Origin: a virus
Length of the DNA stretch: 64,000 bases
Strand: one strand, 5' to 3'
Virus record (IMG/VR): IMGVR_UViG_3300045256_000188
Coordinates: 19,426 to 83,425 of that record
The notes under the pieces are model-generated. The model did no database searches, was not told the origin of the DNA, and saw only the letters and a program-made list of their open reading frames with translations. The translations under genes were made by a program, and so were the position numbers. The first letter of the stretch is position 1. Each line of letters opens with the position of its first letter. Below are positions 20,061 through 35,488 of the stretch, in pieces.

Positions 20061-21049
20061 GACTCGTCCTCGTTGTCGTCCGCGCTACGTCGCCATCCGG
20101 CCCGCTGCCCATCAGCACCACGGTTCAGATTCGAGTCAGTCAGTTCCATACTCCGCAATTTCGTCAACTGGATGAAGTTGGTGACCGTAGCCCGGGATAG
20201 CCCGGTGCGGTCTACCAGCTTACCAATGATCCCATCGTGCGGCCGGTCGTCGTTCTCGGCAATCCAGGCGATTGCTTCGATGATCTGCAGGTGATCGTTG
20301 TGGTACTTCCACAATTCGCGGGCTTCGTTGAGGAACCTCTCCATCACCCCCGACACCGGCCGGCTCTTGGTCCCAAGGTGGTTAACGTAAGAGCCGGAGT
20401 TCTTGCGGTCCCGGCCCTCTTTCTTGATATAGGCCAAGATTACCGTTCGGGCGATCTGGCTCCACATGTTGAAGACTTTGGATATGCCGCGGAACAGTAC
20501 CGTCTCAGAACCACCATATCTGCCCTGCTTGGGCTCGACGCCCGGTGATGCATTCAGGAGGGCTTGGCAATGTGGGCAGCGACGGCCGCGGTGGAGACTG
20601 ATAACCTCCTCAATCGTCTTGATACCATACTCCTTGTCGCCCGGTTGGTAGAGCAGGGAGTCGGAGGGGCGTTCTGGGTTGAAGCAAACCCGACAGTGTG
20701 GGCGTGCTCGATACTTGTAGAGGGTCCGCTCGATTTGAACCCAGGCAGTCTGGAGAAGGTCACCGAAAGCGGACTCTTCTTGGCCTGGGTAGATGGTGTG
20801 GAGGCCCTGCTTGCGGATTATTTGGCGGATGAGTTCGGTGGCGTGACTCATGATCTGGTCACGCAGAACTACCTTCGTGCAACCCGTCCAAATGTATAGC
20901 GTTAGCTGCCATTCGACTTCTTCATTAATGAAATACAATTTACGTTGCGGCGTCACCACCGGTGGCGGGCACGGGGGGACTTGGCTGCTTGGAGGCTGGG
21001 ACAAGCAGCTTTCGTCGGATTTTGAATCTACTTTTAACGAGTTCTGCAC
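20057..21049 (-). CDS. Late-transcription sigma factor (T4 gp55-like) with a Cys-rich insertion
   Basis: KLYFINEE; DLLQTAWVQIERTLYKY; KVFNMWSQIARTVILAYIKKE resembles region-2 motifs; C-terminal HTH (TGLSRATVTNF). Confidence 0.6.
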   Translation of the reverse strand: MQNSLKVDSKSDESCLSQPPSSQVPPCPPPVVTPQRKLYFINEEVEWQLTLYIWTGCTKVVLRDQIMSHATELIRQIIRKQGLHTIYPGQEESAFGDLLQTAWVQIERTLYKYRARPHCRVCFNPERPSDSLLYQPGDKEYGIKTIEEVISLHRGRRCPHCQALLNASPGVEPKQGRYGGSETVLFRGISKVFNMWSQIARTVILAYIKKEGRDRKNSGSYVNHLGTKSRPVSGVMERFLNEARELWKYHNDHLQIIEAIAWIAENDDRPHDGIIGKLVDRTGLSRATVTNFIQLTKLRSMELTDSNLNRGADGQRAGWRRSADDNEDES

Positions 21050-24000
21050 CGTCCACGCTCCCGCCAGGAAATACGACCTTGGTAGGGTAGCCGGCTTGGA
21101 CTATCACCTTGAGCCGGGCCTTCGAGTGATCGTATAGGTACCGGTTGCAGCGGAAGAAGAAGTCGTAAATCTTGCTTTCGCCGCGACGGTTCCGCCGAAG
21201 GGCACGGCCGATCTTTTGAATGAACTCCGATTGGAGCTTACCCCCCGACGCGATTATCAGGTTCTCGCAACCTCCCTGCAGGTCAAGACCCCGGTTAATA
21301 ATCTTCCCGCCGATAAGTACATCCAGTTCCCGCCGTTCGAACGCACGCAATGCCTCATCACGTTTACGCTGCGGCGTCTTCCCGAAGATGAACTTCACCC
21401 TGAGTCCGGTCAGATTCACAGCCTCTTCCAACTTGAAACCCAACGCCTCCCGGTCCACCAGCACTAGTGTCCCATCCATCGGGTCCCGTTTACACCGCTT
21501 GCACAACTTCGCCACGATCGTGTGGAAGCGGACACTCTCAGTAATGTGCTCGTTGTAGGCGATGTCGTAAGCCGACGCCTCGTTGATATCCCCATCCAGC
21601 CCGCAGGCCAACATGTGGTATTCGCAAGGAATGATCCGGCCCAGCTTCGTCAGGTTCTCCCGCGTCTCCTGGAAAATCACACTGCCCAAGTGCTCCTGCA
21701 CCACCATCGCCTCGACCGGCTTGGCCGGATCGAACGGAGTACCAGAGTTGTGAACCAGCACACCATCAGCATAGAAGTTTGAGGCCGGATTGACGTCCAG
21801 AACGTCATACATTCTGACCTCTTTGCCGGTATCGACGACTTCAATCACCGACGTTTTAGCTTTTCGACAGAGATAAACGGGAACACCTTTCCATGAGGAC
21901 AAGCTGTGATCGTCAAAAGAGAACGGGATAAAAGCCGCATTGGGTATCACTACGTCATCACCGTTCGATGCGACGACTGTCCTGCAGTATACCAGTGCCC
22001 GGTGGACCGCCCAACCTATCAGATCCGGACTTTTGGTAGGCATCTGTGTCCGCAGTGCATCCAGAAATTGCCACACATCGTTGAGAGAAGAAGACGGGCT
22101 ATGGAGGCCACAAAAGAAAAGATGTTGCGAGATCACGGCGTGGAAAACTGGTTTTCCGTCGCAGAGCACCAGAAAACCGCGAAGTCCACTAGGCAACGGC
22201 TGTACGGCAGTGAGTCGTTCAACAATCAAAAACGGCGTAGGGAGACCTGCCTCGGCAGATACGGCGTTGACCACCCGATGAAACTGAAGGGCATGGTCCA
22301 GAGAGTCCAAAACACTATGATGGAGCGTTACGGCTGTCCCATCATCTTCCAAGCACCCGATAAGATCCAACGACGATTGAAGATATTCAAGCAGCGTTTC
22401 GGCGGCAACCCCGTCAACGACCCTTCCGTTCGACAGAAAATTAGCCGCACTCTCGCTGAAGGATACAGCAGTGGCAGACTCAAATTCCCGACCAAATTCA
22501 AGACCGGATACTACCTCGACCGGCATGGGCGGTTGTTGTATTACGCCTCGTCTTATGAACTCCTGTTTCTCCAGTTCCTCGACGGGCACGGCATTGCGTT
22601 CACCACGCAAGAACCCAGAATCGGCTATGAATTCGAGGGGAGACGCCAATACGTGATCGATTTCTGTACCGACGAGTGCTTGATCGAGGTAGGACCGCGT
22701 AAACTCAAGGCCCGGCCACGCAATGTGGCCAAGATCCACGCCGGGGTCGCTTTTGCCCAGAAAGTCGGTAAGCGATATAAGCTTCTCGACGAGACGATCA
22801 TCTTGAGTCTGGATAATTTGACCTGGGCTGATATCTTGAACTCTGATGTAGCGTCCCAGATCGTCAGCGATAAGGTGATCACCTGACGCCCCTAGCCGCG
22901 TACCGTCGCTGAATAAGACCTCCCATAACCTCTTAAAGCCGCTGTCAACAACTGTCCCGACCCCAAAAACATCCCTACCATTCGATCGGCACAGGACGTC
23001 AACCACCTGACCGTCGCCGAACGAACTCAACTTTCTACATCCATCTTTAGTGACCACAGACACATCGCCTGGCAAGCAGAACCCATACCGCCGCCGGCCT
23101 CTGAAATAGAAGCGGAACAGGTTCTTCCACGGATCGGACACAGCCTTGTCGCAATTATGAACTAACAAGCCGTTCGCTTCAAAACAAGCTGGACCGGGGA
23201 CAGTCAAATCAATCAAGCGTGCGGGATCAGCCAACTCGACGGTTTTAACTATTTCAACCGCATAATCACAGAGACTGGTGTCCACTCGTTTAGAAGCAAG
23301 GCGATTTTGCAAATTCCGCACATAACCACGCCATAGATCATCACCTCGCTGGCGACGATCCCACGCCGTCTTGCTGTCTATGCCAGCGAACGCCGCCACT
23401 TTGGCGTCACTAACACCGAATAAATTTTTGGCAGCAGCATAATTGGCCGGTACCACCGCGATCAAATTGTCAATTGATTTTTGCCATTTAACCAACCTTA
23501 TAAGACTAATTTTGTTACGATTGCCAGGAGACACACCGGTAGTGTTGGTCCCTAGGATTCTAGCCAGTTTGACTGGGGGCAGACCAGCTTCCCGCCAGTG
23601 AGCCAACCATGGTTGCGGATCAATTCGTCGTTCACTGTCCACAACCGAAGAGAGCACGGGTTTGCTCTGTTTTCGGCTGAAACCAAAACCAACCAGTCGA
23701 TGCCACTTCCTAAAATTTTCGCCAGATACGGCAACCCGCCACAGTTTAGCGTGTTGTGCACGATCACGCTTATTACTAATGAACACACTAGAGCCAATTC
23801 CTAAATAAGCCATGAGTTTCTGAGCGAAATTCATCAATGCCCAATCGATTGAGTCACAAGTCACGGAGCTTGGATAAGACGACCCTTTTGCATCAAATAA
23901 TCCACGCAATAAGCTAGCCGCAGCGTCGGTGCTGGGAACCACAAATCGTGGATCGATCGACCCCATCTTACGTCCGGGTTTGAACCCAAGCTGTTTCAAC

Positions 24001-25289
24001 CATGCTGTTAAGGCTGACGACTTGATTATAAACACAAAATCGCCACGGCGATTGAAACCAGATTTAAATGACCCAGACCAGGCGACAGCCATCGCCACAC
24101 CAACAGCATGCCAGTCGTCAACATCTTTCCGAACTGCGAAGCGTACTCGCTCATTATCCAAAAAATGGCCATCTCCGATAAACAGACCGAGGTGGTACCA
24201 AGAGTCTATGATTGTGGTGGTAGCAATCTCCGGGCGAGGGGCCAACAGCAAGTCGCCGGGGACGAGATCGCAAGCATGACGATAGTCGCATCGGCCATTA
24301 ACTAAAACAGCACATGGATGGTTGTGCGAAGTCCGCAAAATTATACCAGTCGTGGTTGTAACGTTGACAGTAGCTTCTACCTTTTCGGACCACCCACTAA
24401 TTCGATAATACTTATCATTGACGCGAGCCATTACAACTTGACCAGTCTGCAAACGTTCTACCACCACTGCGGCTCGTTCGAGACCTCCGTCGGTGACTAT
24501 TACAGTGTCTTCGTGAACGCACTCGTCCACAATAATCATTTCGGCCTTGCGGACGTACTCGATCAGCACCTTAGCATTCTTGCGACGGGTCTTGAACGCC
24601 TTGAACTTCTTATCCCACTGTTCCATCCGTTTCTGGAACGAGATATCGCCTTCCCCCATCTTCTGGGTAGGGACCTCCGGTGGCTTGGTAGGCAATGTAA
24701 GTGACTGGATAGAACCGATGACCACCATCTGGCCATTGGGCCGCTTCCCAGCGTAGAACATGCCGACTTCTTCGGCCACATCCCGCAGTTCCAGCCGCTC
24801 CTTGAGTTGCTTTACTACAATCACTTGGTCAGCGAGGATGATCGTCGGGCAAGGAATAGCCTTGCAAGTGCCGGCGATGAGTTCGCCCTTACCGCCGCCG
24901 GTTGGTATGTCGATAATACCGCACTCGACCCTGACGGTCTTTCGGATGCAGTCGATCTGGTACTGCTCCAGCTTGATGCCGGGCAGGAAATTCTCGTCGA
25001 TGGTATCAGGATCGACTGTTTGGTAATTCCAAGCTGGGCGAAGATCGCGAACTGAGAGGGGTAGGTTGTGCTTGTTGCAAACACCACGGAGCATCGACAG
25101 GAATGGGCGGGCCATTCGCCGCCGGCCGCGATTGTACTTGCGGAACACCCCATCCCAATTCGCCATCTGGGTTGGGTCAACATAACGGCCCGGTCGACTA
25201 ACACTGAACTCTTCCCAAAGGATGTTCTCCTCGGCGTCCGTGATGTTGTCGAAGTAAATCCACTGGTTGTCGTTGAGTATGGCGATCAC
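20940..25289 (-). CDS. uvsW: SF2 DNA helicase (UvsW-like) with two inteins; about 549 aa after splicing
   Basis: PTGGGKG, IIVDE|CD, GF|SGTP, RGLDL, QKIGRALR, IYDF. Confidence 0.9.
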   Translation of the reverse strand: MIAILNDNQWIYFDNITDAEENILWEEFSVSRPGRYVDPTQMANWDGVFRKYNRGRRRMARPFLSMLRGVCNKHNLPLSVRDLRPAWNYQTVDPDTIDENFLPGIKLEQYQIDCIRKTVRVECGIIDIPTGGGKGELIAGTCKAIPCPTIILADQVIVVKQLKERLELRDVAEEVGMFYAGKRPNGQMVVIGSIQSLTLPTKPPEVPTQKMGEGDISFQKRMEQWDKKFKAFKTRRKNAKVLIEYVRKAEMIIVDECVHEDTVIVTDGGLERAAVVVERLQTGQVVMARVNDKYYRISGWSEKVEATVNVTTTTGIILRTSHNHPCAVLVNGRCDYRHACDLVPGDLLLAPRPEIATTTIIDSWYHLGLFIGDGHFLDNERVRFAVRKDVDDWHAVGVAMAVAWSGSFKSGFNRRGDFVFIIKSSALTAWLKQLGFKPGRKMGSIDPRFVVPSTDAAASLLRGLFDAKGSSYPSSVTCDSIDWALMNFAQKLMAYLGIGSSVFISNKRDRAQHAKLWRVAVSGENFRKWHRLVGFGFSRKQSKPVLSSVVDSERRIDPQPWLAHWREAGLPPVKLARILGTNTTGVSPGNRNKISLIRLVKWQKSIDNLIAVVPANYAAAKNLFGVSDAKVAAFAGIDSKTAWDRRQRGDDLWRGYVRNLQNRLASKRVDTSLCDYAVEIVKTVELADPARLIDLTVPGPACFEANGLLVHNCDKAVSDPWKNLFRFYFRGRRRYGFCLPGDVSVVTKDGCRKLSSFGDGQVVDVLCRSNGRDVFGVGTVVDSGFKRLWEVLFSDGTRLGASGDHLIADDLGRYIRVQDISPGQIIQTQDDRLVEKLISLTDFLGKSDPGVDLGHIAWPGLEFTRSYLDQALVGTEIDHVLASPLEFIADSGFLRGERNAVPVEELEKQEFIRRGVIQQPPMPVEVVSGLEFGREFESATAVSFSESAANFLSNGRVVDGVAAETLLEYLQSSLDLIGCLEDDGTAVTLHHSVLDSLDHALQFHRVVNAVSAEAGLPTPFLIVERLTAVQPLPSGLRGFLVLCDGKPVFHAVISQHLFFCGLHSPSSSLNDVWQFLDALRTQMPTKSPDLIGWAVHRALVYCRTVVASNGDDVVIPNAAFIPFSFDDHSLSSWKGVPVYLCRKAKTSVIEVVDTGKEVRMYDVLDVNPASNFYADGVLVHNSGTPFDPAKPVEAMVVQEHLGSVIFQETRENLTKLGRIIPCEYHMLACGLDGDINEASAYDIAYNEHITESVRFHTIVAKLCKRCKRDPMDGTLVLVDREALGFKLEEAVNLTGLRVKFIFGKTPQRKRDEALRAFERRELDVLIGGKIINRGLDLQGGCENLIIASGGKLQSEFIQKIGRALRRNRRGESKIYDFFFRCNRYLYDHSKARLKVIVQAGYPTKVVFPGGSVDGAELVKSRFKIRRKLLVPASKQPSPPVPATGGDAAT
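21747..23078 (-). mobile_element. Helicase intein 2 (444 aa): splicing domains flanking an antisense-derived insert
   Basis: YGF|CLPGDVSVVTKDG ... ASGDH ... MYDVLDV ... DGVLVHN|SGTP; the middle has no endonuclease motifs in this frame. Confidence 0.9.
21906..22886 (+). CDS. Homing-endonuclease-like protein (zinc ribbon, RYGV-type repeats, PD-(D/E)XK/TnsA-N-like domain), antisense within helicase intein 2
   Basis: CDDC/CPQC; TCLGRYGVDHPM and TMMERYGC repeats; SVRQKIS; YYASSYEL ... YVIDF ... LIEVGP; GAGGA RBS before GTG. Confidence 0.85.
   Translation: MIVKRERDKSRIGYHYVITVRCDDCPAVYQCPVDRPTYQIRTFGRHLCPQCIQKLPHIVERRRRAMEATKEKMLRDHGVENWFSVAEHQKTAKSTRQRLYGSESFNNQKRRRETCLGRYGVDHPMKLKGMVQRVQNTMMERYGCPIIFQAPDKIQRRLKIFKQRFGGNPVNDPSVRQKISRTLAEGYSSGRLKFPTKFKTGYYLDRHGRLLYYASSYELLFLQFLDGHGIAFTTQEPRIGYEFEGRRQYVIDFCTDECLIEVGPRKLKARPRNVAKIHAGVAFAQKVGKRYKLLDETIILSLDNLTWADILNSDVASQIVSDKVIT
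23154..24521 (-). mobile_element. Helicase intein 1 (456 aa, LAGLIDADG) inside the DExD box
   Basis: VDE|CVHEDTVIVTDGG ... LGLFIGDG ... LIDLTV ... LLVHN|C. Confidence 0.92.
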
Positions 25290-25510: not shown

Positions 25511-28500
25511 CTACGTGGGCATGGCGCACTTGTCGTTGTCGCAGAACTGCGAACCCACCGCCTCGTACAGATACTCCGAGTAATCGGCGTTACCGAGCTT
25601 GGAGTTGTACTCCTCAACTTCCGCGGCCTCACACGGAATGTATGGGGCCTGGGCGTAGCCATGGTCTACGTGCGGCAGGAAACTGATGCCCTTGAGTTGG
25701 TCCTCAAAAGCTTCCAGCACGCGGGCAATGTCCGCGGCCTCGTGCGGCTTAAACTTCACGGTACACGACACTTGGTTATCGGCCCAATACCGCTGGTAAT
25801 CCACGGCGTTCTGCATCTGTTCCCAGATGCTAACTTCGCCGACTGGCCGGACGCCCGATTCGCCCTTGACGCCGAAGTAGACCACCACGGTCCGGTCCGG
25901 GTCAGACAGCACCGGCTCGACCTTGAAACCCGCCTCGCGGAGGATCTTGACCAGGACCGAGTCCTTGGCGACCCGCACCAACCGCCAGTAGGTGCCGGCT
26001 TCGGGATGGTGGATGCCGGGGGAGACGCCCACGACCAGACTGACGGTGTTATGGCTTTTCACCGCCCCCGCATAGTACCAGTGACTATTATCGACCTCGA
26101 CATCATATGTGCGTTGCCGTTCGCCTTGGGTTACAGCCACCACTTTGCCAAATAATCTGTTCTTCTTGCCAACTTGGTGTGTCCATGGTAAATCGGCAAC
26201 GGCGTCTTCCACACACTTATTGCAGTGTTTAGCGAACAACGCGAAGCGGTCGTCCACGGTGTGTTTCATCCCAGACAAGGACCACATTCTTCGCACGCCT
26301 TGATGATTGCGTCCCTTAGCGTTAAGCGACCTACTGAAAACAAGACCAACGGCCAACGCCACATCCTGAACGTGCCGAGCAAATAAATCCCCAGACATTG
26401 AAATGATTGGATACTGATCAGACGCCCGCCGACCAATGCAGCCATCGGAATCACACAGCCCAGCCAGGAAGGCCAAGATGTCTTCGTAGCTTGAACTGCG
26501 TATGCATTTCGGGATCAAATCAGCATTGCTCTTGATTTTCAGACAGTCGTTAATCAAGAGCCAGTGCCACAGCAACTTGGAACCAACTTCGAGAACGAAA
26601 GCATCACGACCTTGGGAAGCCCGTGTGATTTTCGTCTCGACTCCGAATTGCTCCAGAATAACCCTTTGGGCTTTGTGTAAATTAGACAGATTTTGATCGG
26701 TGTACCGCATCCTGAATTTCAGGAACGATTGTGAACCGTCGCCCCACATGTATCCGAGCAACCACGCTAGATCCGGGTTCATGTGCGTTGGTTGCTCAAT
26801 GGCTGCGACCGGACCACGCATCGACACGTGCCTAGATGATAGTTTGCAGAGGGCAGCATGGTTGCGACACGAATAAATACCAGGAGTCAGTTGCACGATG
26901 TCGCCAGGCAACAGTTCGTCGGCACGTTTCCAGTCGTTGACCTGGCTTAATTTCCGCTTCTTACCTCGGTCGTATCGTGACACTACGAACCATTGATGGT
27001 TTGGAGTCGACTCAAGCATGAAATTGTAGTTGAGTTTGACCTTCACGACATCAGATAAGCCGTTGTCATAGGTCTTGGTGATGCGATCACCGATTGCCGT
27101 GGCAACTCCAGCCATCATCGACCGACTAGAATCGATTCCATCTCCCTGAACAGCGATCACTTCTTTGGTCATATCACACCACCGTTCCCCATCCTGATGG
27201 CCAGACATCTCGAACAGCTCTTCGAGGGTCAGCAGACCGGCGGATGTTGTCGTCAGTGCATGCCAGGGCCGACAGCCGCTAGGCTTGACCGACGTGACCT
27301 TGATCGACTTCGGAACGCACATCCATTCCGAGTAGATCTGGTCCCAACGGCGGATCTCATTGTAGCCGGCATCGCAGAAGTCCTTGAGGACCGTGCGACG
27401 ACCAAACTTGGCGAACGCTTCCACGATCCCCGACTGGCTCAGGCCGATCCGCCGGTTGCGGAGGGTGACCTGATTCGTCCGGCGATTGTGGGTTGGCAGC
27501 AGGGTGACGGTCTTGGCGTACAGGTAGGCGAACTTGAGGGTCCGCATGTAGTCGTTGGCATCATCGTGGTTCGATGGGAACGTCTCCACGAGATTACATT
27601 GGTAAGTGATGACGTTCCCGAATACACCCATGTGGTTGTCCGGCTCATCAAAGCAATAAGTAGTATGCAGACCAGGAAGTTTCTCGACGGCAACCACATA
27701 CTGCTTTTGGGCGACATCGATTCCGCGATTCGAGTATCGTGGATTCGGCTTAATCCGGCTACCGATCTTAGTTGCTCGCTTCACCCTGGTTGGGATTTCT
27801 CCGCACTCGAAGCTCGGAATCTGAATGTACCAGAGGTCGTTCTGTCGCACCCCCTTGTTCGTCACTTGCCCAGCCGGGTGATAAAAATTGACGGAGGCGT
27901 GGTTGATCCCAGCCCTGCGTAGGAGTAGTTGGGCATCACGAATCTTGGCTTCCAAACCGTAGATCCGATAGCTGTGAGTATTAGCCTGCTTACACACGCA
28001 ACCGTCCGACTCGATCCAACCGGCGATGAACTCCAAGATGCTCTCACGATCGAAAGCCATCACCCACGCCGGTAAGCCGGCGTTCTTGTCGCGAAGTTCT
28101 CTGAGCTGATCGGAAGTCATACAGTCTCGAAGATTGATGCGATTATACGGGTCGCCGTAACCATCCTTATTCTGTGGTTTGTACCAACGACCTCCCATGT
28201 CCAGCGTCTTGAGTTTGGCCTTTTGGCCACAGGCGACGGCCATGGGGCGGGTATAGCGTGGCCGATTCACGAGATCACCATCGCCAGTAGCATAGCCCAT
28301 TTCAAAAGCGTTAGAGACTTTGTTACCAGCGACCCGGCCCAGAGAGAAACCCAGCACGCGGTCTCCAGGCTGTAATTGTAGGGTTCCAACACGTCGATAG
28401 ACCCGTTTTCCAACAGGCCGCACCGACCATCCGTGATTGCCGGTAGCATCCAGATAAGAACCGTCGGAGAAGTGAACTCGATATAGTTCGCGGTCGCTCC

Positions 28501-31500
28501 CAGTGACGCGGGGCGTGACTTTCGACCAACTATCGCCGTTCCAGACTTCGACAATCTTACCAACCACGGCGTCGATCCGGCGGATGCCATCCCGGAGCTG
28601 TAATTTAGTGTCACCACTGACACACAGCTCGTACGACTCCAGGGACTGCTCCATGCATTGACCAATTATTATCCCATTGACAACAACTTTATTATGCCCC
28701 GGTTCGGTAAGACAGAAAGTCTCCTCCTCACCGACACGCTCAACAGACATGACCATCGCAAACAGTTTCGGTAAAGAGTTGCGGCTACCATGGTGGTCGG
28801 CCAACCAAGATGTAGCCTTTTCGGTTTTCGAAGCCTGTATAAAACCGATCTGATTCATGAACAGCTGAACGTTAGTACGACCGGAGATTATTAGTTCGTG
28901 GCCACCATTTCCATCGTTCATAAGTCTGGTGGTAACCGCTTGTCTTCGCAGGACGCTAGAATTGATCCCAAACTGCCTAAGCAACAGTTGACATTCATTC
29001 AAGAATGACTTCGATTTCTGGCCGGCCCTGATAGAGATTGATAGTTTGTAGTTGCTAATCTGTACACCACCGTCCGCACTAAAGAAGCCCCTAAGGAAAG
29101 CTGCCACTGTTTCGCGAGTGCCACCCCAAATAGATGTAGGGACCCTGTGCTTGTCGCCTGGAACAACACCGTCACTATTAAGCAATCGACCCAGGACATT
29201 GGACCTGATCGATTTCTGCCGATGGCTGAAATGCTCCTGACGGCGTTCACTGCCATCGAAATCGGGAGACTGATCACTGGATTGATTGTGCCGATGATAG
29301 ACATCCAATAGATTACGGCGCAACACCGGTAAGACCTCTTCGATATCGTCCTGATGACAGGCCACAAACGCCGTCACCTGACCATCACGCTGTTGTGACA
29401 GTGAGCCATCTCCGATCACCCAGCCAGCCAATTCAGCATAGTGCGGATCGCTGAATTGCCCGAATGCTGGCACGAAATGAAGTGGCAAACGGTGACCCGG
29501 AACCAATTCACATAGCCGTACCCTGTGCTCAACCATATCATCATCCAAGACTACGAAGACATGATCAGCGGTGGCGTCGATATACTGACCATTACTAAGC
29601 ATCACGCGGAATATTTCAGCACGTTCGCTAGTTCGATAAACATTGGTAGCAGTAACCACACCAGCATGGTTTACTACTCTGAGTGTGCCATGCTTGTCAA
29701 CGGATGGTTGACCGCTATACTCCTGAAACCCACCACTTACCCACAGTTCGCGCATCGTGCGATATCCGTTCTCGGTCAACAACCTCATGGCTCCCGCAAA
29801 ACAAGGGTTCGCCCCCATCACGCGGCCATCCACACCGGGCTTGAGGCCGTCCACCATCCGCCCGTAGTCGCGGACGTTGTTGAGCCAGATGATACCCGGC
29901 TCGCCGTTGACGCCGATCTGCTGACCGACAGGACGGTAATCCATGCCGAGCTTGGCGAAGATCGAGTTGTTGGATGCCCAGCGGTGGTGGTTAAGGGCGT
30001 TCCAGGTCTGGATTGCCGGCAGCAACCGCTCATCCGGGATGTCCTTACCGGCGAAGTCGTCCTTGGTGGCCGAGTTCCGCTTGGCGGCGTAAATCTTGCC
30101 CGTAACTTCGAACCACGCATCCATGTCCTGCGGCAGCAGGGTCTTGGTCGGGTTCTTCATCGAGCAGTACGCTTCGTCGTCGGCGTCACCGAAGGCGATT
30201 TCGGCGGTGTTATGCACCAAACGCCCCTCCGCCACGAACTCGCTGCGGTCCGGCACGGACAGATCGTAGGTCTCGACGGTCACTCCCTCGTCCACGACTG
30301 AGGTCACCGCCACCGGAATCAGACCCTTTGTCTTCAGGCCCAGCGTAGTAGCACTTGAATAGGTCATCTGTTCCTGTTGCGGCGTCCAGGTTCGGCCGTA
30401 GTCAGCATACATCACACTCTTGCTGACCATCTCCGTCGGGTAGCCGAAATCGTGGCCGCTGGCCCGTCCCATCTCGCGAAGCTGCTTGACCGCATGGGGC
30501 TGGACATGCTGGCGGAAACCGGCGATGGCATACTCGCCCAGCAACGAGATCTCCCATTTGGCCTGGCCAGCAGCGTCGGCCTTCTTACGGAGCCGCAATT
30601 TGGTCGGGATACCAAGGCTTGAGTATACGGCCTGCACCTGCCGTAGGAAGTCACGATATACGCTAGTCACCAGGGTGGTTGGACGGTTCTTGGTGGAACC
30701 GTCGCTGTCCAGCAGCCCGGCGAGGTAGGCAGATCTGATCTCCGGGATCCCCATGCGGATACAGGCCGGTACGTCAAGGGGCTTACGGGCCTGCTTAACG
30801 TGAGTGTACAAATAGTGGGCCAGTCGCTTGGAAATGACACGGATCTTGCGACAATTATCTTGGCTGCGTTGCTCGCCGGGGGCGTCGAAACCGAAGGCCG
30901 CAAATCCGGCGTTCACTTTGGCGGTGATACCATCATGGTATTCGTCTCGATTTACGGGGATCGTCACCGAGGCTCCATGGTACTTGCGGCCCTTGTGGGC
31001 ACGCCCAGGATACACGTAGCCGCCGCCATGTACGGCCCCCAGGAACCACGCCACGTCCGTGGTCAGACCGGGGACGATCAGGGTTGACCCGCGGCCGGAT
31101 AGGTCACTGTAGCCGGGCAGGACGGTATCGGTACCGGGGATGACGGCATCCACGAACACCATTCGGTCACCGGCCCGGAGTTCGTGGGCACGCTTCCACT
31201 CGTATTGGTCCAGGCCGCTCATCACGGCGATCCGGTGCCTGTCGGTGCAGCGGAACGGCCCCATCAGACTGTTGATGGTCACCACCCGCTGAACCCCCTG
31301 GGCCACGTTTTCGGCGACCGGGTAATAGCCGTCGGCGGTGAGGACTAAATCACCGACCTGTACCTGTTCGATCGGGACCAACCCGCGTTTGAGGTGAACC
31401 AGGGTGCCCTTGGGCAAGCACCGACGGACATTCCCAGCAACCACGCAACGACCAATGTAGTTCATCAAGTCGGTGATGTCCACCGAATCGAGGGTCTGGC

Positions 31501-34432
31501 CGATCTTCCGGTCCAGGTGGGCTCGAATGAGGACGTGCAGTTCGATCAGGATACTAGGGCCGCTGGCCTTGCCGCCAAAGCCCTTGATGTCCGACCCTTC
31601 CTTTCGAATCTGGGAATAGTCGAACTCGACGATGCCTTCCTTGTAGGCCACGGTGTAGGAGCGGATCAGGTGGCGTACCGAGTCAACCCAGCCCTCGCGG
31701 GAGTCTGGGATGACAAACGGCCGAATGATGCTTGGATTGGGCTGGTAGATGTTGATCTTGCCAGCACCCTTGGTATCAAACCCGACGCCCACGCCGAGCA
31801 TCGACATGTCCATGAGGAAGCAGAACGGCTCAGCCGGGTCTGACTCCGACAGATCGGAGGTCGAGACGAAGCCGCAGTTCCGGGAATGGATACCGTCAGC
31901 GAGAGCAAATGAGTGGTAATCTGGAACCTGTGGGCAGAAGACTTCTTCGTACCGGTCGGTTGGCTCCACTGACTTGACGCGCCAGTGATATACAGGCCGC
32001 GTCCGGTGACTGGACCAGGACTCGAATCGACGGCGATGTTCTTTCAGCAAGAAGAACTCAGGCCGTAAATGAGACCCCATAAGCCCAATCTCATAACTGT
32101 CGAAGGTCTTAACTTCCCCATCATGCTTGACAACTTGATGGCTCTTGATGATAGAATATGTGCCAATACCAAGAACGGCACACACGTCACGCACGACTAG
32201 AAGATTGGACTTCTTACTGCTGCTAATCCTGATACAGTTGCCTTTCTTGTTGATCTTCCCGTCAGCAGCGAAGTAACCGGCGAGCCAGCCATAGAGATAA
32301 CTGCTCGACTCACGCAGAGACGGTGGTTCTTTGAAGAATCGCGGAAGATCCGCGACTCGCACCGCCCCACCCTCACACTTGTCGGGATGATCGGTAGTCG
32401 GGCAAGAGTTGAAGTACTTGAGCAGTTCCCTATCCTTGTGGCCACACAGATAAATAGATGCTCCGCTGTGACCAGCTGCCGGGGTATTGCCGTCACCATA
32501 CGTGATCCCGTGGGCGATGCCAAAGTTACTTGGCCGAAGTTCACCACCGATGCCACGTCCAAACAGGTATCGCAGGCAATCAACGCCGGGTTTGAGGTCC
32601 TTAGTAGTGCAGATGCGATAAGGAGCCGTTCTCCGCCTCTTGGCTGTGATGACAGCCACACTCACACCATCGGACTGACTGGCATGGTTTGCCGGTGCGA
32701 ACCGGCGATCACGTGCGTACCACTCATGATCAGCGGTAGCGTAGATGATCTTCTCTGAACCAGAACGCTCAAGAGTGATTTTCCATAGTTGTTGCACCCC
32801 AAACGATTTGATAGGTGCTTCAACCCAGCGTCCACCCTCGGTCAGTAGCGTCTGGACGGTGCCAGCCAATTCACCTATGGGCTTGATGCCGTCGCGAGTA
32901 ACAATCTCCTCTTCGGCCGGGAGACAGTTCCCGGTCAAGATGTTGTCTTCGAGGACGAAACATCCCTTGCCAGGAACTGTGGCACAATATACTTCCTCTT
33001 CCCGATCAGTTTCTTCGACCGATTCCACGATCCATTTTTCGCGATGGCTACCGCCGCGTTCCTTCCAGGCCAGGAATCGCTGGCGGTGATGAGACAGCAG
33101 GAAGAAGTCTTCGGTCAGGTGCTCCAATTTCAGGTACACCCGGTATCCAACGAATTCGCGGCGGTCACCGCGGTGGTTCACCACATGCATGCCCTGTTGT
33201 ACTAGACCGGTGCCGATACCGAGAACAGCACAGACCTCACGTACCAGTTCCATGTTCTCCTGTTTCGAGGAATGGATAAACGCCGTACATGCCTTCTTAT
33301 TGATAGAGCCGTCAGCAGCGAAATATCCGGCCAGCCAACCGTACAAGTACGCCTTACACTCACGCAGATCCGGCGGCGACTTATAGTGGCGTGGCAGATC
33401 AGCCACCCGGATCGCGCCCTCCTTGCCCTTGCGTGGGTCGAAACTCGTCGGCGATTTCGAGAAGAACTCTAGTAATTCAAAGTTCTTCTTGCCGCAGAGA
33501 TAGAGATAGCTGCCGGTGCTCTTATCCTTGTGACCGAGCGTCCCATCGCCAAAGCAGATGCCATGGGCGATGCCGAACTGCGACGGTCGAACGCTCTGAA
33601 CGCCTTGCCCATAGACCATCTGAAGCTCGTGCCCGATCTCCAGATTGCGTGTAAGCGTTTCCTGGAACGGCCCCTTACGCCGGATGTGACGAAGCCGTTC
33701 GTCCCGGTCCACTCCGGCCGGGATTCGATTCAGTGCTGGTCTAGCGAACCAGCGGTGATCAGGGGTGGCGTAGATGACCTTGCGAGTCCTGAACCGCTTC
33801 AGGACTATTTTCATCAGTTTCTGTCTGCCGAAACTGCGGATTGGTGCATCTACCCACTCACCGTTGCTAGTCATCAACATCTGAGTGGTACCGGCCAGCT
33901 CCCCAATGGGCTTGATCCCATCTCTGGTGATGATCCGTGTGTTGAATTCCAGACAGTTGTTCAAGGCGGCGGAGCCCCGTTCCCACATGAACTTGGTGCC
34001 CATCATCCAGAGCCCGCGGCCCGGCGGCAGGAACTTGAAGTCCCACATCCGCTGAAACATCTCCTGGGCACTGGCCTGGGCTTTTTCAGCGGTCCAGGGG
34101 ATGTGCAGGTGATTGCAGTGTCGCCGCTGGATCTCGTAGCAGCCTTCAACGACCCGCTGGACGACGTCGAGGAACGTCTCCTTGCTGCCGTCCTCCTTGA
34201 GGCGGGAGTAGGTGCGGTAGAAGACGAATTCACCGAGTCCGCTGAAGCCGAATTTGGGCTTCTTCCCCTTGTACCCCTTGAGGAATGCCGGATCGAGGGT
34301 GAAATGAGCTTCTCCCTGTCCGCCGCCGAGATACTTCTCGGCGATGTTATAGATCTCGGCTTGCGGAGACAGGGGGATAGCGGGGCCATTCCCCACGGCC
34401 GCTGGCCGCAGGTTCAAGAGGATAACAGACAC
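25511..34432 (-). CDS. nrdJ: Class II adenosylcobalamin-dependent ribonucleotide reductase with six inteins; about 743 aa after splicing
   Basis: RTYSR, PPGRGLW, LNNC, GVGVGF, DSREGW, VAGNVRR, NPC-EQ-LE-YELC, NRRIG, KPSGTVS, C-terminal CDNDKC; start set at GTG after GGAGAG. Confidence 0.95.
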   Translation of the reverse strand: MSVILLNLRPAAVGNGPAIPLSPQAEIYNIAEKYLGGGQGEAHFTLDPAFLKGYKGKKPKFGFSGLGEFVFYRTYSRLKEDGSKETFLDVVQRVVEGCYEIQRRHCNHLHIPWTAEKAQASAQEMFQRMWDFKFLPPGRGLWMMGTKFMWERGSAALNNCLEFNTRIITRDGIKPIGELAGTTQMLMTSNGEWVDAPIRSFGRQKLMKIVLKRFRTRKVIYATPDHRWFARPALNRIPAGVDRDERLRHIRRKGPFQETLTRNLEIGHELQMVYGQGVQSVRPSQFGIAHGICFGDGTLGHKDKSTGSYLYLCGKKNFELLEFFSKSPTSFDPRKGKEGAIRVADLPRHYKSPPDLRECKAYLYGWLAGYFAADGSINKKACTAFIHSSKQENMELVREVCAVLGIGTGLVQQGMHVVNHRGDRREFVGYRVYLKLEHLTEDFFLLSHHRQRFLAWKERGGSHREKWIVESVEETDREEEVYCATVPGKGCFVLEDNILTGNCLPAEEEIVTRDGIKPIGELAGTVQTLLTEGGRWVEAPIKSFGVQQLWKITLERSGSEKIIYATADHEWYARDRRFAPANHASQSDGVSVAVITAKRRRTAPYRICTTKDLKPGVDCLRYLFGRGIGGELRPSNFGIAHGITYGDGNTPAAGHSGASIYLCGHKDRELLKYFNSCPTTDHPDKCEGGAVRVADLPRFFKEPPSLRESSSYLYGWLAGYFAADGKINKKGNCIRISSSKKSNLLVVRDVCAVLGIGTYSIIKSHQVVKHDGEVKTFDSYEIGLMGSHLRPEFFLLKEHRRRFESWSSHRTRPVYHWRVKSVEPTDRYEEVFCPQVPDYHSFALADGIHSRNCGFVSTSDLSESDPAEPFCFLMDMSMLGVGVGFDTKGAGKINIYQPNPSIIRPFVIPDSREGWVDSVRHLIRSYTVAYKEGIVEFDYSQIRKEGSDIKGFGGKASGPSILIELHVLIRAHLDRKIGQTLDSVDITDLMNYIGRCVVAGNVRRCLPKGTLVHLKRGLVPIEQVQVGDLVLTADGYYPVAENVAQGVQRVVTINSLMGPFRCTDRHRIAVMSGLDQYEWKRAHELRAGDRMVFVDAVIPGTDTVLPGYSDLSGRGSTLIVPGLTTDVAWFLGAVHGGGYVYPGRAHKGRKYHGASVTIPVNRDEYHDGITAKVNAGFAAFGFDAPGEQRSQDNCRKIRVISKRLAHYLYTHVKQARKPLDVPACIRMGIPEIRSAYLAGLLDSDGSTKNRPTTLVTSVYRDFLRQVQAVYSSLGIPTKLRLRKKADAAGQAKWEISLLGEYAIAGFRQHVQPHAVKQLREMGRASGHDFGYPTEMVSKSVMYADYGRTWTPQQEQMTYSSATTLGLKTKGLIPVAVTSVVDEGVTVETYDLSVPDRSEFVAEGRLVHNTAEIAFGDADDEAYCSMKNPTKTLLPQDMDAWFEVTGKIYAAKRNSATKDDFAGKDIPDERLLPAIQTWNALNHHRWASNNSIFAKLGMDYRPVGQQIGVNGEPGIIWLNNVRDYGRMVDGLKPGVDGRVMGANPCFAGAMRLLTENGYRTMRELWVSGGFQEYSGQPSVDKHGTLRVVNHAGVVTATNVYRTSERAEIFRVMLSNGQYIDATADHVFVVLDDDMVEHRVRLCELVPGHRLPLHFVPAFGQFSDPHYAELAGWVIGDGSLSQQRDGQVTAFVACHQDDIEEVLPVLRRNLLDVYHRHNQSSDQSPDFDGSERRQEHFSHRQKSIRSNVLGRLLNSDGVVPGDKHRVPTSIWGGTRETVAAFLRGFFSADGGVQISNYKLSISIRAGQKSKSFLNECQLLLRQFGINSSVLRRQAVTTRLMNDGNGGHELIISGRTNVQLFMNQIGFIQASKTEKATSWLADHHGSRNSLPKLFAMVMSVERVGEEETFCLTEPGHNKVVVNGIIIGQCMEQSLESYELCVSGDTKLQLRDGIRRIDAVVGKIVEVWNGDSWSKVTPRVTGSDRELYRVHFSDGSYLDATGNHGWSVRPVGKRVYRRVGTLQLQPGDRVLGFSLGRVAGNKVSNAFEMGYATGDGDLVNRPRYTRPMAVACGQKAKLKTLDMGGRWYKPQNKDGYGDPYNRINLRDCMTSDQLRELRDKNAGLPAWVMAFDRESILEFIAGWIESDGCVCKQANTHSYRIYGLEAKIRDAQLLLRRAGINHASVNFYHPAGQVTNKGVRQNDLWYIQIPSFECGEIPTRVKRATKIGSRIKPNPRYSNRGIDVAQKQYVVAVEKLPGLHTTYCFDEPDNHMGVFGNVITYQCNLVETFPSNHDDANDYMRTLKFAYLYAKTVTLLPTHNRRTNQVTLRNRRIGLSQSGIVEAFAKFGRRTVLKDFCDAGYNEIRRWDQIYSEWMCVPKSIKVTSVKPSGCRPWHALTTTSAGLLTLEELFEMSGHQDGERWCDMTKEVIAVQGDGIDSSRSMMAGVATAIGDRITKTYDNGLSDVVKVKLNYNFMLESTPNHQWFVVSRYDRGKKRKLSQVNDWKRADELLPGDIVQLTPGIYSCRNHAALCKLSSRHVSMRGPVAAIEQPTHMNPDLAWLLGYMWGDGSQSFLKFRMRYTDQNLSNLHKAQRVILEQFGVETKITRASQGRDAFVLEVGSKLLWHWLLINDCLKIKSNADLIPKCIRSSSYEDILAFLAGLCDSDGCIGRRASDQYPIISMSGDLFARHVQDVALAVGLVFSRSLNAKGRNHQGVRRMWSLSGMKHTVDDRFALFAKHCNKCVEDAVADLPWTHQVGKKNRLFGKVVAVTQGERQRTYDVEVDNSHWYYAGAVKSHNTVSLVVGVSPGIHHPEAGTYWRLVRVAKDSVLVKILREAGFKVEPVLSDPDRTVVVYFGVKGESGVRPVGEVSIWEQMQNAVDYQRYWADNQVSCTVKFKPHEAADIARVLEAFEDQLKGISFLPHVDHGYAQAPYIPCEAAEVEEYNSKLGNADYSEYLYEAVGSQFCDNDKCAMPT
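26048..27274 (-). mobile_element. NrdJ intein 5 (409 aa, LAGLIDADG)
   Basis: KPSG|CRPWHALTTTSAG ... STPNH ... LAGLCDSDG ... TYDVEV ... KSHN|TVS. Confidence 0.92.
27599..28624 (-). mobile_element. NrdJ intein 4 (342 aa, LAGLIDADG, C-terminal Gln)
   Basis: SYEL|CVSGDTKLQLRDG ... IAGWIESDG ... TYCFDE ... VITYQ|CNLVE. Confidence 0.92.
28658..29803 (-). mobile_element. NrdJ intein 3 (382 aa, LAGLIDADG, C-terminal Gln)
   Basis: GANP|CFAGAMRLLTENG ... LRGFFSADG ... TFCLTE ... IIIGQ|CMEQ. Confidence 0.92.
30209..31420 (-). mobile_element. NrdJ intein 2 (404 aa, LAGLIDADG)
   Basis: GNVRR|CLPKGTLV ... LAGLLDSDG ... TYDLSV ... LVHN|TAEI. Confidence 0.93.
31877..32926 (-). mobile_element. NrdJ intein 1b (350 aa, LAGLIDADG), directly abutting intein 1a
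   Basis: TGN|CLPAEEEIVTRDG ... ATADH ... LAGYFAADG ... VFCPQV ... IHSRN|CGFVST. Confidence 0.92.
32927..33955 (-). mobile_element. NrdJ intein 1a (343 aa, LAGLIDADG)
   Basis: ALNN|CLEFNTRIITRDG ... ATPDH ... LAGYFAADG ... VYCATV ... ILTGN|C. Confidence 0.92.
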
Positions 34433-35085
34433 GGTTCTCTCCAGTCTTGCTCGAAGATGTCGCGGGCTTGGTTGAGGTTTCCCTGATCCTTCAGGAATTC
34501 CTGCCACAGGATGTACAATTCGGTCTGCCTGGGTAACAATCCCCGTTCGTCTGGGTAGTCGCGGTTGAGTCGAGCCAGAACTTTGGAGCAGGACCGCGAC
34601 AGTGCGAGATAGAGCGGTGTGATACGGGACGCCTGGAACCACATAGTCAGGTTACAAAACCCGTCAGGGTCTGCCCGACTTGATAGCACTTCCACGGCGT
34701 TGCCATCGCCAATTTTCTTGCTGAGCCAGGACTTGATGTGCCGGAGGGAATCGGTCGTTCGCGTGTTGTTGTTGGACTCTTCTTGCAGTTCCTCGTAGCA
34801 CAGATCCAGCATGTTGTGCTGGTGCAGTACTGCGAGTCCCTTGTTCAGCAGTCCCTTCTCTTTCGCGAGCCGCACGGCGATGTCGATGAACTTCTTCGCC
34901 GCTTCATCCGGTAGTTCCCACTCCTCAAACTTTTTAGCGATGGCCGTCGCATACCGCCACTGGTAAGTCTTGGACGGGTCCGTACCGGCCGGGAGGCTCA
35001 GCCTACGGCCTTGCCGTAGATAGGCTTCTGAGCACCAGGACCAGACGTCGAGCACCCGGTTGTCGTCCACTTGCGACCTCTTCAT
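34414..35085 (-). CDS. Hypothetical protein
   Basis: Start refined to MKRSQVDD; the 3' end overlaps the nrdJ start. Confidence 0.65.
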   Translation of the reverse strand: MKRSQVDDNRVLDVWSWCSEAYLRQGRRLSLPAGTDPSKTYQWRYATAIAKKFEEWELPDEAAKKFIDIAVRLAKEKGLLNKGLAVLHQHNMLDLCYEELQEESNNNTRTTDSLRHIKSWLSKKIGDGNAVEVLSSRADPDGFCNLTMWFQASRITPLYLALSRSCSKVLARLNRDYPDERGLLPRQTELYILWQEFLKDQGNLNQARDIFEQDWREPCLLSS

Positions 35086-35110
35086 GCGGATGTCAATACA
35101 AGGAGCTTCG

Positions 35111-35488
35111 ATGACTGACAAGCCCGCACTCCCAGACAAGCAGAAGGCCAAGAATGCACCAGATGTGGCCACCACTATCGATGCCCCAGCAGTGGCCCAA
35201 AACGGGGTTGGCGAGGGTGCTTCCGACCCTCGCCAGGACAGTTTTGACGCTCGATTCGCGAAGCTAACCAATGGATTTGGTCAAGCCTGCGAACAGGAGG
35301 GTGTCGAAATCGCGATAGCTATCGCCATCCACCCGGAAGAGAAGCACCCCATCATATTCATGCGGGGCCACCAATACGACGTCGGGGTGCTCTTAGCAGA
35401 CGTGCTTCGGCAGTTCTCACGACGGCTGATCGGGCCTCTCAACGCCAACCCGAACTACGAGCCAGAAGAAGACGAGAACGACGAATGA
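35111..35488 (+). CDS. Hypothetical protein
   Basis: AGGAG RBS before ATG (MTDKPALP); acidic tail. Confidence 0.65.
   Translation: MTDKPALPDKQKAKNAPDVATTIDAPAVAQNGVGEGASDPRQDSFDARFAKLTNGFGQACEQEGVEIAIAIAIHPEEKHPIIFMRGHQYDVGVLLADVLRQFSRRLIGPLNANPNYEPEEDENDE

What the first reader, a model, noticed from the sequence alone, without database searches (positions are those of the whole stretch)
31877..33955. Two paralogous inteins back-to-back with zero extein at an NrdJ catalytic cysteine
Seen: ALNN|C-intein 1a (343 aa)-TGN|C-intein 1b (350 aa)-SRN|CGFVST. The first Cys of 1b is also the +1 nucleophile of 1a. The two are clearly related (TRDGIKPIGELAGT, FGIAHGI..GDG, YLYGWLAGYFAADG) but diverged, so this is not a simple assembly duplication. 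Established: an intein insertion normally destroys the homing site, giving one intein per site. Inference: 1a ends in GGG AAC|TGT, resembling the AAC AAC|TGY target, which may have allowed a second allele to stack by homing or recombination. The shared Cys forces ordered splicing or a single joint excision. Both inteins lack the penultimate His (Gly and Arg instead).
Basis: partly seen in the sequence, partly recalled or inferred. Interest (0 to 1): 0.88.

Follow-up and report, generated by a model that had tools for sequence, protein, structure and literature searches.

The report
Two different inteins stacked at one site
A ribonucleotide reductase gene of a large uncultured hot-spring phage carries two complete self-splicing inserts from different lineages, joined end to end at a single codon boundary, which suggests that an occupied intein site can still take a second intein.

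Summary
One 9.1-kb ORF (25511..34642, minus strand) encodes a class II ribonucleotide reductase with six inteins. The first two abut with no extein residue: ALNN|C-1a(343 aa)-TGN|C-1b(350 aa)-SRN|CGFVST.

The junction is not an assembly artefact. The two inteins share only 53% of bases, with a longest exact shared run of 14. An independent 47-kb Logan contig reproduces the stretch. A 682-base contig with 12 differences also spans the junction.

They are not in-place duplicates. 1a is 92% identical to the single intein of the nearest relative (P0152). 1b groups with other single inteins at the same site (56-64%). An AU test rejects 1a+1b as sisters (p 7e-49). The three closest host genes show all three states: A only, B only, A+B.

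Both inteins keep every family-invariant splicing and endonuclease residue. Only 1b's last six residues are remodelled.

I infer that a rare illegitimate join, or an off-target homing event, stacked two alleles. Each intein should then excise independently in either order. The claimed target resemblance and the forced splicing order are not supported.

I found no paper describing this layout. This scan has noted the same layout in other phage genes, and I found two more stacks here. Splicing is untested.

The parts
25511..34417 (-). nrdJ-type class II ribonucleotide reductase gene interrupted by six inteins. The ORF is open up to GTG 34642. The gene call behind P0151 (2968 aa) implies a start near 34417.
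   Evidence: Pfam RNR_Alpha E 4.8e-32, RNR-II_ins_dom 2e-11; P0151; PDB 1L1L ribonucleoside triphosphate reductase, E 1.6e-18 and 5.5e-6
33956..34417 (-). N-extein segment ending ...GSAALNN. Its end aligns to ...SLNN118 of L. leichmannii RTPR.
32927..33955 (-). Intein 1a (343 aa; CLEFNT...NILTGN). It has a HINT splicing domain plus a LAGLIDADG endonuclease domain. It belongs to allele lineage A, shared with the nearest relative P0152 at 92% identity.
32924..32929 (-). The intein-intein junction: Asn572 codon AAC (32929..32927) followed directly by Cys573 codon TGT (32926..32924). Cys573 is both residue 1 of 1b and the +1 residue of 1a.
   Evidence: spanned by contigs
31877..32926 (-). Intein 1b (350 aa; CLPAEE...GIHSRN). 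Same family and same two-domain layout as 1a. It belongs to allele lineage B, 56-64% identical to the single inteins of P0215-P0224. Its C-terminal block G is remodelled.
31421..31876 (-). Extein segment starting with the conserved Cys (CGFVST...), the position equivalent to residue 119 of RTPR.
30209..31420 (-). Intein 2 (404 aa, CLPKGT...RLVHN|T)
   Evidence: 63% to P0153 over its full length
28658..29803 (-). Intein 3 (382 aa, CFAGAM...IIGQ|C), inserted at the NPC motif
27599..28624 (-). Intein 4 (342 aa, CVSGDT...ITYQ|C), only 11 extein residues after intein 3
   Evidence: 76% to P0152
26048..27274 (-). Intein 5 (409 aa, CRPWHA...KSHN|T)

Best explanation
This is a genuine stack of two complete inteins from the same site-specific family but from two different allelic lineages. 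Both occupy the single codon boundary before the conserved Cys of a phage class II ribonucleotide reductase.

Shown: lineage A (1a) is the allele shared with the closest relative. Lineage B (1b) circulates as a single allele at the same site in other closely related reductase genes. The two were brought together rather than duplicated in place.

Inferred origin: a rare illegitimate join between an A-bearing and a B-bearing genome during co-infection. It could have formed at the 5-base overlap AAC|TG that every Asn|Cys junction shares, or during repair of an endonuclease cut. Only an exactly in-frame product would leave a working reductase.

Inferred working: after translation the two inteins fold as separate modules and each splices itself out on its own. 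Because this family starts with Cys and its site has Cys at +1, the first residue of 1b can serve as the +1 nucleophile of 1a. If 1a goes first, the product is the ordinary precursor ALNN-1b-CGFVST. If 1b goes first, the product is the ordinary precursor ALNN-1a-CGFVST. Either order therefore ends in ALNN-CGFVST.
For: Reality of the junction:. Logan assemblies hold an identical protein on 2 contigs (P0308).

Two lineages: in a careful tree of 41 rows (window 1a and 1b plus 39 proteins I picked from the 282 with a parsed intein), 1a+P0152 has 100/100 support, adding P0153/P0001 100/99, and adding P0003 99/98. 1b plus P0215-P0224 has 99/98. AU test for 1a+1b held together: lnL 153 lower, p 7e-49.

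Same site: all of P0152, P0153, P0001, P0003 and P0215-P0224 carry their single intein between ...LNN and C[GA]F[VIC]ST.

Host genes: the window, P0152 (A only) and P0215 (B only) form a 99* trio in a 34-row extein tree. Extein identities are 82-94% to P0152 and 84-97% to P0215. The intein identities are 92% (1a to P0152) but only 62% (1b to P0215).

Integrity: 78 columns are at least 90% conserved in 39 single alleles. 1a differs at 2 of them (L>M, F>Y). 1b differs at 5: I>V plus four of the last six residues. C1, T64, H67, W69, the block F Cys, the terminal Asn and both LAGLIDADG Asp are invariant in 45 of 45 family members, including both halves.

Fold: the AlphaFold model of 1a has pLDDT 94.4. 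Its best PDB matches are PI-SceI, the TliVMA intein and PI-PfuI (probability 1.00, TMq 0.60-0.65).

Recurrence: P0023 has a family intein followed directly by a 159-aa mini-intein at this same site. P0149 has four inteins in a row.
Against: - No splicing or endonuclease data exist for any member of this family, and no solved structure matches it by sequence.
- 1b's block G differs from the family consensus at four of six positions (NILTGN to GIHSRN) and its terminal branch is long (0.44 against a median of 0.21). 1b could be impaired at its C-terminal step.
- In the stack the +2 residue seen by 1a is Leu instead of Gly or Ala, and the -2/-3 residues seen by 1b are Gly-Thr instead of Asn-Leu. 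The effects are unknown.
- The donor of 1b is not sampled (best match 64%). Allele types are scattered over the extein tree. Which intein arrived second is therefore inferred, not shown.
- The two runs that bridge the junction come from one sample. No listed piece of the two runs from other samples (X9, X10) bridges it, and 82 pieces were not shown.
Confidence: 0.7

Rival explanations
1. Immunity-breaking homing. The endonuclease of the B lineage reads mainly the C-extein half of the target, so it can still cut an allele already occupied by 1a at the 1a|C-extein boundary. Repair from a B-bearing genome then places 1b behind 1a. Stacking would then be a directed property of the element, not an accident.
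For: The whole C-extein half-site is intact next to 1a in single-A alleles such as P0152. Stacks recur at this very site (P0023) and elsewhere (P0149). 1b keeps both LAGLIDADG Asp residues and all conserved endonuclease columns. Asymmetric recognition by intein endonucleases such as PI-SceI is recalled, not checked here.
Against: The left half of the would-be target (the 3' end of 1a) matches the natural left half at only 6 of 20 bases. Ordinary repair from a B-only donor would be expected to replace 1a, not add to it (inference). Stacks are rare: 3 of 282 proteins with a parsed family intein (one is the window's own), and no abutting second family match in 59 IMG/VR spans.
Confidence: 0.15
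2. The two inteins act as one unit. One splice junction of the pair is dead (for example the C-terminal step of 1b's neighbour or the N-terminal step of 1b). The 693-residue block then leaves in a single splicing event that uses the N-terminal chemistry of 1a and the C-terminal chemistry of 1b.
For: Here the inner junction has non-native neighbours on both sides (TGN|CLP), and 1b's block G is remodelled.
Against: All four junction nucleophiles and helpers are present: C230, N572, C573, N922, C923, the block B T..H..W and the block F Cys in both halves. The remodelled block is at the outer junction, which a joint excision would need most. 1a is 92% identical to an intein that must splice alone in P0152.
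Confidence: 0.08
3. Local tandem duplication of one intein followed by long divergence.
For: Same family, same length class, 49% identity over the full length.
Against: 1a and 1b each have closer relatives among single alleles elsewhere (92% and 64%). AU test p 7e-49 against their being sisters. The two nearest host genes carry one allele each.
Confidence: 0.03
4. Assembly chimera of two strains that carry different alleles at the site.
For: The record is a metagenome assembly, and A-type and B-type alleles both occur in closely related genes.
Against: A chimera needs a shared word at the join, and the longest exact run shared by 1a and 1b is 14 bases. The join is in frame to the base. A second assembler gives the same 47-kb contig at even depth 13.3. 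A variant contig with 12 differences bridges the join.
Confidence: 0.03

Closest known systems
Canonical inteins with a LAGLIDADG homing endonuclease (PI-SceI / Sce VMA1, TliVMA, PI-PfuI)
   Same: Each half has a Cys1 ... Asn|Cys+1 frame, a block B T-x-x-H, two LAGLIDADG motifs with their Asp residues, and a predicted two-domain fold. The model of 1a matches 1vde, 7qsu and 1dq3 at probability 1.00.
   Different: Sequence identity to the solved inteins is 12-16%, and there is no PDB match by sequence. The penultimate residue is Gly or Arg, not His. Block F position 4 is Cys, not Asp. Two such inteins occupy one site with nothing between them.
'Double inteins' at neighbouring sites, e.g. MCM-a and MCM-d of Haloferax mediterranei (PMC10643990; abstract and passages read)
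   Same: Two endonuclease-bearing inteins sit in one gene and close together. The question of how they interact in homing is the same. In that paper double alleles arise mostly by invasion of singly occupied alleles.
   Different: There the two inteins sit at two distinct sites, each endonuclease recognises its own part of the gene, and extein residues lie between them. Here both sit at one codon boundary, belong to one family and presumably share one empty target.
WCT-triplet (class 3) inteins, prototype mycobacteriophage Bethlehem DnaB intein (PMC2807308; abstract and passages read)
   Same: Trp at block B position 12, Cys at block F position 4 and Thr at block G position 5 are present in 1a (W69, C324, T341). 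1b has W, C and Ser. Phage setting.
   Different: Class 3 is defined by the absence of an N-terminal nucleophile. Both halves start with Cys and keep block B Thr and His. The +1 residue is Cys rather than Ser or Thr. The paper lists 3 of 37 WCT inteins with Ser1 or Cys1, whose mechanism it left open.
Phage class 1 inteins without the penultimate His, e.g. Bethlehem gp51 RDF intein with penultimate Gly (PMC5050341; passages read)
   Same: Penultimate Gly in a phage intein that, in that paper, splices to completion.
   Different: Different host protein and family. It is a single intein.

Membership tests
Intein (HINT protein-splicing domain) | N-terminal Cys/Ser and block B Thr-x-x-His | tested here: met
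   C1, T64 and H67 in 1a; C1, T64 and H67 in 1b. All are invariant in 45 of 45 aligned family members.
Intein (HINT protein-splicing domain) | C-terminal Asn followed by a Cys/Ser/Thr +1 residue | tested here: met
   N343|C (the Cys of 1b) for 1a, and N350|C (CGFVST) for 1b. The Pfam Intein_splicing matches are below the curated cut-off for each half alone (17.7 and 19 bits against 35.8). The family call therefore rests on the motifs, the profile hits and the fold.
Intein (HINT protein-splicing domain) | Precise in-frame insertion in a conserved host protein whose relatives show the same flanks | tested here: met
   The N-extein ends at RTPR residue 118. Relatives with one intein have identical flanks ALNN|...|CGFVST.
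Intein (HINT protein-splicing domain) | Protein splicing activity | not testable with these tools
   No experiment was possible, and no RNA or protein data were seen.
LAGLIDADG homing endonuclease domain | Two LAGLIDADG motifs, each with the catalytic acidic residue, and the matching fold | tested here: met
   Pfam LAGLIDADG_3 E 2.4e-5 (1a) and 2.3e-6 (1b), both above the cut-off. GDG and AADG Asp residues are invariant in 45 of 45. The model matches PI-SceI and I-DmoI.
LAGLIDADG homing endonuclease domain | Site-specific DNA cleavage | not testable with these tools
   Not tested.
Class 3 inteins | No N-terminal Cys/Ser/Thr nucleophile (PMC2807308) | tested here: not met
   Both halves and all 45 aligned relatives begin with Cys.
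Class 3 inteins | Trp (B:12), Cys (F:4), Thr (G:5) triplet | tested here: met
   1a has W69, C324 and T341. 1b has W69, C331 and S348, with Ser in place of Thr. The block numbering is my own assignment from the T..H and terminal Asn positions.
Class II ribonucleotide reductase (RTPR / NrdJ type) | RNR alpha domain and class II insertion domain, with similarity to a solved class II enzyme | tested here: met
   Pfam PF17975 E 4.8e-32 and PF21995 E 2e-11. PDB 1L1L is the only match for both extein pieces.
Class II ribonucleotide reductase (RTPR / NrdJ type) | The Cys after the insertion site is a catalytic (redox-active) cysteine | tested here: inconclusive
   Its position equals RTPR residue 119. 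That Cys119 pairs with Cys419 is recalled from the literature. My paper search for it found nothing relevant.

The most novel reading that the evidence does not exclude
Stacking is a strategy, not an accident. Inteins of this Cys1/Cys+1 phage family can home into alleles already occupied by a rival allele, because their endonuclease tolerates the intein-derived left half-site. The newcomer's own first Cys supplies the +1 nucleophile that the resident needs. Site occupancy would then give no immunity. Arrays of two to four inteins (as in P0149) would be the trace of serial super-invasion among co-infecting phages.
Probability: 0.15. Interest if true: 0.85.

Novelty: new variant of a known kind. 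Interest (0 to 1): 0.62.

Why it matters
The standard picture of intein spread is one intein per site. An occupied site lacks the endonuclease target and is taken to be immune until the intein decays and is lost.

A stack of two intact alleles at one codon boundary shows that occupancy does not exclude a second element. The nearest relatives carry one or the other allele alone.

The stack also gives a natural system for two questions. Can an intein use another intein's first residue as its +1 nucleophile? How do two splicing centres that share the Asn|Cys peptide bond avoid interfering with each other?

For protein engineering, a natural scarless intein-intein junction is a template for sequential or orthogonal splicing designs.

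The finding is descriptive. It rests on sequence, phylogeny and a fold model, not on splicing data.

Tried and rejected
1. Close relatives at DNA level. The search for related loci with the 693-aa stack found none in viral contigs or in metagenome contigs. An exact 33-base search across the junction in metagenome contigs found 0. The tools warn that the window's own record may be left out.

3. Folding the whole stack. An alignment with the stack as first row (A3) put the N-terminal parts of the single inteins on 1a and the rest on 1b, so I did not fold it. Only 1a was modelled.

4. Runs X9 and X10 (other samples) hold parts of the gene. No listed piece bridges the junction, and 82 pieces were not shown. 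This is no evidence either way.

5. The X9 loose end at 33008 has a stop in the gene's frame and matches the window at 3 of 30 bases. I set it aside as an unrelated join.

6. Phage GenBank records. The best tblastn hit is the single intein of Thermobifida phage P318 (31%), with no stack among 14 records.

7. Literature.
- searched for tandem, adjacent, back-to-back, consecutive, nested, contiguous, juxtaposed, stacked, abutting and twin inteins, 'intein-intein', 'inteins in tandem', 'no intervening extein', 'double intein' and 'same insertion site'. No paper described natural inteins with zero extein between them.
- 'Contiguous inteins' in the hits means non-split inteins. 'Tandem intein' in PMC3207474 refers to hedgehog repeats.
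- Tori and Perler 2011 (PMC3133030) is not held. What it says about WCT inteins with Cys1 I could not check.
- Supplements were not consulted.

8. The role of RTPR Cys119 could not be confirmed from papers.

Full report
WHAT IS THERE

The window is part of an 83.4-kb IMG/VR virus record that CheckV rates 23% complete. Public runs holding the stretch are labelled hot-spring and microbial-mat metagenomes. On the minus strand one ORF runs from 34642 to 25511 (3043 aa). Its extein parts match Pfam RNR_Alpha (E 4.8e-32) and the class II insertion domain (E 2e-11). In the PDB they match only the Lactobacillus leichmannii ribonucleoside triphosphate reductase 1L1L.

Six inserts with intein ends interrupt the ORF. 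The first two are the finding.
- Intein 1a is aa 230-572 (33955..32927).
- Intein 1b is aa 573-922 (32926..31877).
- The sequence reads ALNN|CLEFNT...NILTGN|CLPAEE...GIHSRN|CGFVST.
- The N-extein end aligns to ...SLNN118 of 1L1L, so the Cys after the stack corresponds to residue 119 of that enzyme. That Cys119 is one of the redox-active pair is recalled; I could not confirm it from papers.

IS IT REAL?

1a and 1b are 49% identical over their full length (E 3e-111). At DNA level they are 53% identical, with 34% at third codon positions. Only 68 of 173 identical residues use the same codon, and the longest shared exact run is 14 bases. A word-based assembler therefore had nothing to confuse.

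Logan's independent assembly of run X1 has a 47,139-base contig covering 25000-35500 without a difference, at an even depth of 13.3. That run may be the source sample. Run X5 is another run of the same sample. It has a 682-base contig over 32524-33205 with 12 differences, so a variant sequence carries the same junction. The protein collection holds the identical protein from JGI and from Logan, on two contigs each. These are contigs, not raw reads, and I found no bridging contig from a different sample.

WHAT ARE THE TWO HALVES?

A profile of 1a and 1b finds 1,881 proteins at E <= 0.001 in the representative library. The family typically ends in NILTGN|C and sits in many host proteins. In a 45-member alignment, C1, T64, H67, W69, the block F Cys (C324), the terminal Asn and both LAGLIDADG Asp residues are invariant. 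Pfam LAGLIDADG_3 passes its cut-off in both halves.

No solved structure matches the family by sequence. An AlphaFold model of 1a (pLDDT 94.4) matches PI-SceI, the TliVMA intein and PI-PfuI at Foldseek probability 1.00. Both halves are therefore full-size inteins with a LAGLIDADG endonuclease domain.

The family combines Cys1 and Cys+1 with the Trp/Cys/Thr triplet. Tori et al. tie that triplet to class 3 inteins (PMC2807308, passages read). Because Cys1 is present, the class 3 definition is not met, and the mechanism cannot be read from sequence. The missing penultimate His is the family norm. It is also documented in phage inteins that splice (PMC5050341, passages read).

DUPLICATES OR TWO ALLELES?

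Searches with the region and with 1b alone gave relatives with one intein at exactly this site.
- P0152 has exteins 82-94% identical to the window's and a single intein 92% identical to 1a (49% to 1b).
- P0215 has exteins 84-97% identical and a single intein 62% identical to 1b (53% to 1a).

I built a careful tree of 41 rows. The 39 database rows were picked by me from 282 parsed proteins: the nearest relatives of each half plus more distant same-site inteins.
- 1a joins P0152 (100/100), then P0153/P0001 and P0003.
- 1b falls in a separate clade with P0215-P0224 (99/98).
- Forcing 1a and 1b together costs 153 log-likelihood units (AU p 7e-49).

An extein tree of 34 rows puts the window, P0152 and P0215 in one 99* trio and scatters the allele types elsewhere. 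In one tight group of host genes the site is thus found with allele A, with allele B, and with A followed by B. Because 1a tracks the extein divergence and 1b does not, I read 1a as the resident and 1b as the arrival. This is inference, since the donor of 1b is unsampled.

STATE OF THE TWO INTEINS

Among 39 single alleles, 78 columns are at least 90% conserved. 1a departs at two of them, conservatively. 1b departs at five: I9V and four of the last six residues, where NILTGN becomes GIHSRN. P0220, in the same clade, has NILTRN, so Arg at the penultimate position is not unique to 1b. 1b also has the longest terminal branch of its clade (0.44). Everything else that the family conserves is intact, including the endonuclease motifs.

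HOW IT PROBABLY AROSE

The bases do not support it: 6 of 20 upstream and 5 of 20 downstream positions match, which is chance level.

What the three junctions share is AAC|TG, the Asn|Cys codons. A join between ...1a-AAC|TGC-C-extein and N-extein-AAC|TGT-1b at that overlap would give exactly the observed sequence. Selection for a working reductase would keep only an in-frame product. An endonuclease cut next to 1a, repaired from a B-bearing genome, could also produce the stack. I cannot tell these apart.

Stacks are rare in what I saw. Three of 282 proteins with a parsed family intein have one, and one of those three is the window's own. None of 59 spans from 63 IMG/VR loci has a second family match abutting it.

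The two other stacks are informative.
- P0023 has a family intein followed directly by a 159-aa mini-intein at this same reductase site.
- P0149 has four inteins in a row before a Cys. Its cluster includes an NCBI protein named phage tail tip lysozyme.
- In every one of these junctions an Asn is followed by the Cys that starts the next intein.

HOW IT PROBABLY WORKS (INFERENCE)

An intein needs its own residues plus a nucleophile at +1. In this family the intein's first residue and the site's +1 residue are both Cys, so 1b's Cys573 can stand in for the extein Cys in the splicing of 1a.
- Excision of 1a yields ALNN-1b-CGFVST, the natural layout of lineage B.
- Excision of 1b yields ALNN-1a-CGFVST, the natural layout of P0152.

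Nothing forces an order or a joint excision. If the block F Cys can start the reaction as in class 3 inteins, 1b would not even need Cys573's thiol for its first step. That would ease competition for the shared residue. This last point is speculation.

KNOWN OR NEW?

I found no paper describing natural inteins with no extein between them. The nearest published case is the 'double intein' at two neighbouring but distinct MCM sites (PMC10643990, abstract and passages read).

Earlier notes of this scan report the same layout in terminase, portal and radical-SAM genes of other large phages. I did not test those. Together with P0023 and P0149, they suggest a recurrent, undescribed variant of intein biology in large phages. 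I file it as a new variant of a known kind.

LIMITS

- There are no raw reads, no DNA of the key relatives, no model of the whole stack, and no functional data.
- The supplements of the cited papers were not available. They may list WCT inteins with Cys1 relevant to the class question.

Noticed in passing
window 25511-34642 (-): The reductase gene carries six inteins in all. Inteins 3 and 4 (28658-29803 and 27599-28624) are separated by only 11 extein residues (CMEQSLESYEL, 28625-28657), right after the NPC motif.
   Followed up: partly
window 6612-11372 (-), 12037-17709 (-), 20940-25289 (-): The T4-like portal gene (Pfam Portal_T4 E 2.5e-58) reads as having three inteins. An unidentified 1890-aa ORF has three, and a helicase-like ORF has two. 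That makes at least 14 inteins in 64 kb. The boundaries were read by eye from the translations plus Pfam intein and endonuclease hits. None of these abut.
   Followed up: partly
protein P0149 (1812 aa) and cluster members P0311, P0312, P0309: Four inteins stand back to back with no extein (42-349, 350-662, 663-918, 919-1224) ahead of QCVGYAWG. The cluster includes an NCBI protein named phage tail tip lysozyme from an uncultured Duncaniella, and the protein is seen on several contigs.
   Followed up: partly
protein P0023 (1577 aa): A second stack occurs at the same reductase site in another organism: SLNN|C-318 aa family intein-TGN|C-159 aa mini-intein-TGN|CGFVST. The mini-intein groups with the P0149 inteins.
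   Followed up: partly
proteins P0002 and P0233: Two family inteins are separated by only 21 and 8 extein residues, in Cys-rich host proteins.
   Followed up: no
window 31831 / 33996: One low-depth contig of run X5 (depth 2.6, 74 bases on its shorter side) joins 31831 to 33996, skipping 2164 bases that include both inteins. The tool does not say what lies between. It could be an empty or differently occupied allele of a related gene. The run was laid at 80% likeness, so it may come from another organism.
   Followed up: no
window 31877-31894 (-), last six residues of 1b: Block G of 1b reads GIHSRN where 36 to 39 of the 39 single alleles have each residue of NILTGN. Four of 1b's five departures from family-conserved columns are here.
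   Followed up: partly
window 34414-34642: The long ORF extends about 75 codons upstream of the gene call behind P0151 and overlaps the ORF at 34414..35271. The true start is probably near 34417-34432.
   Followed up: no
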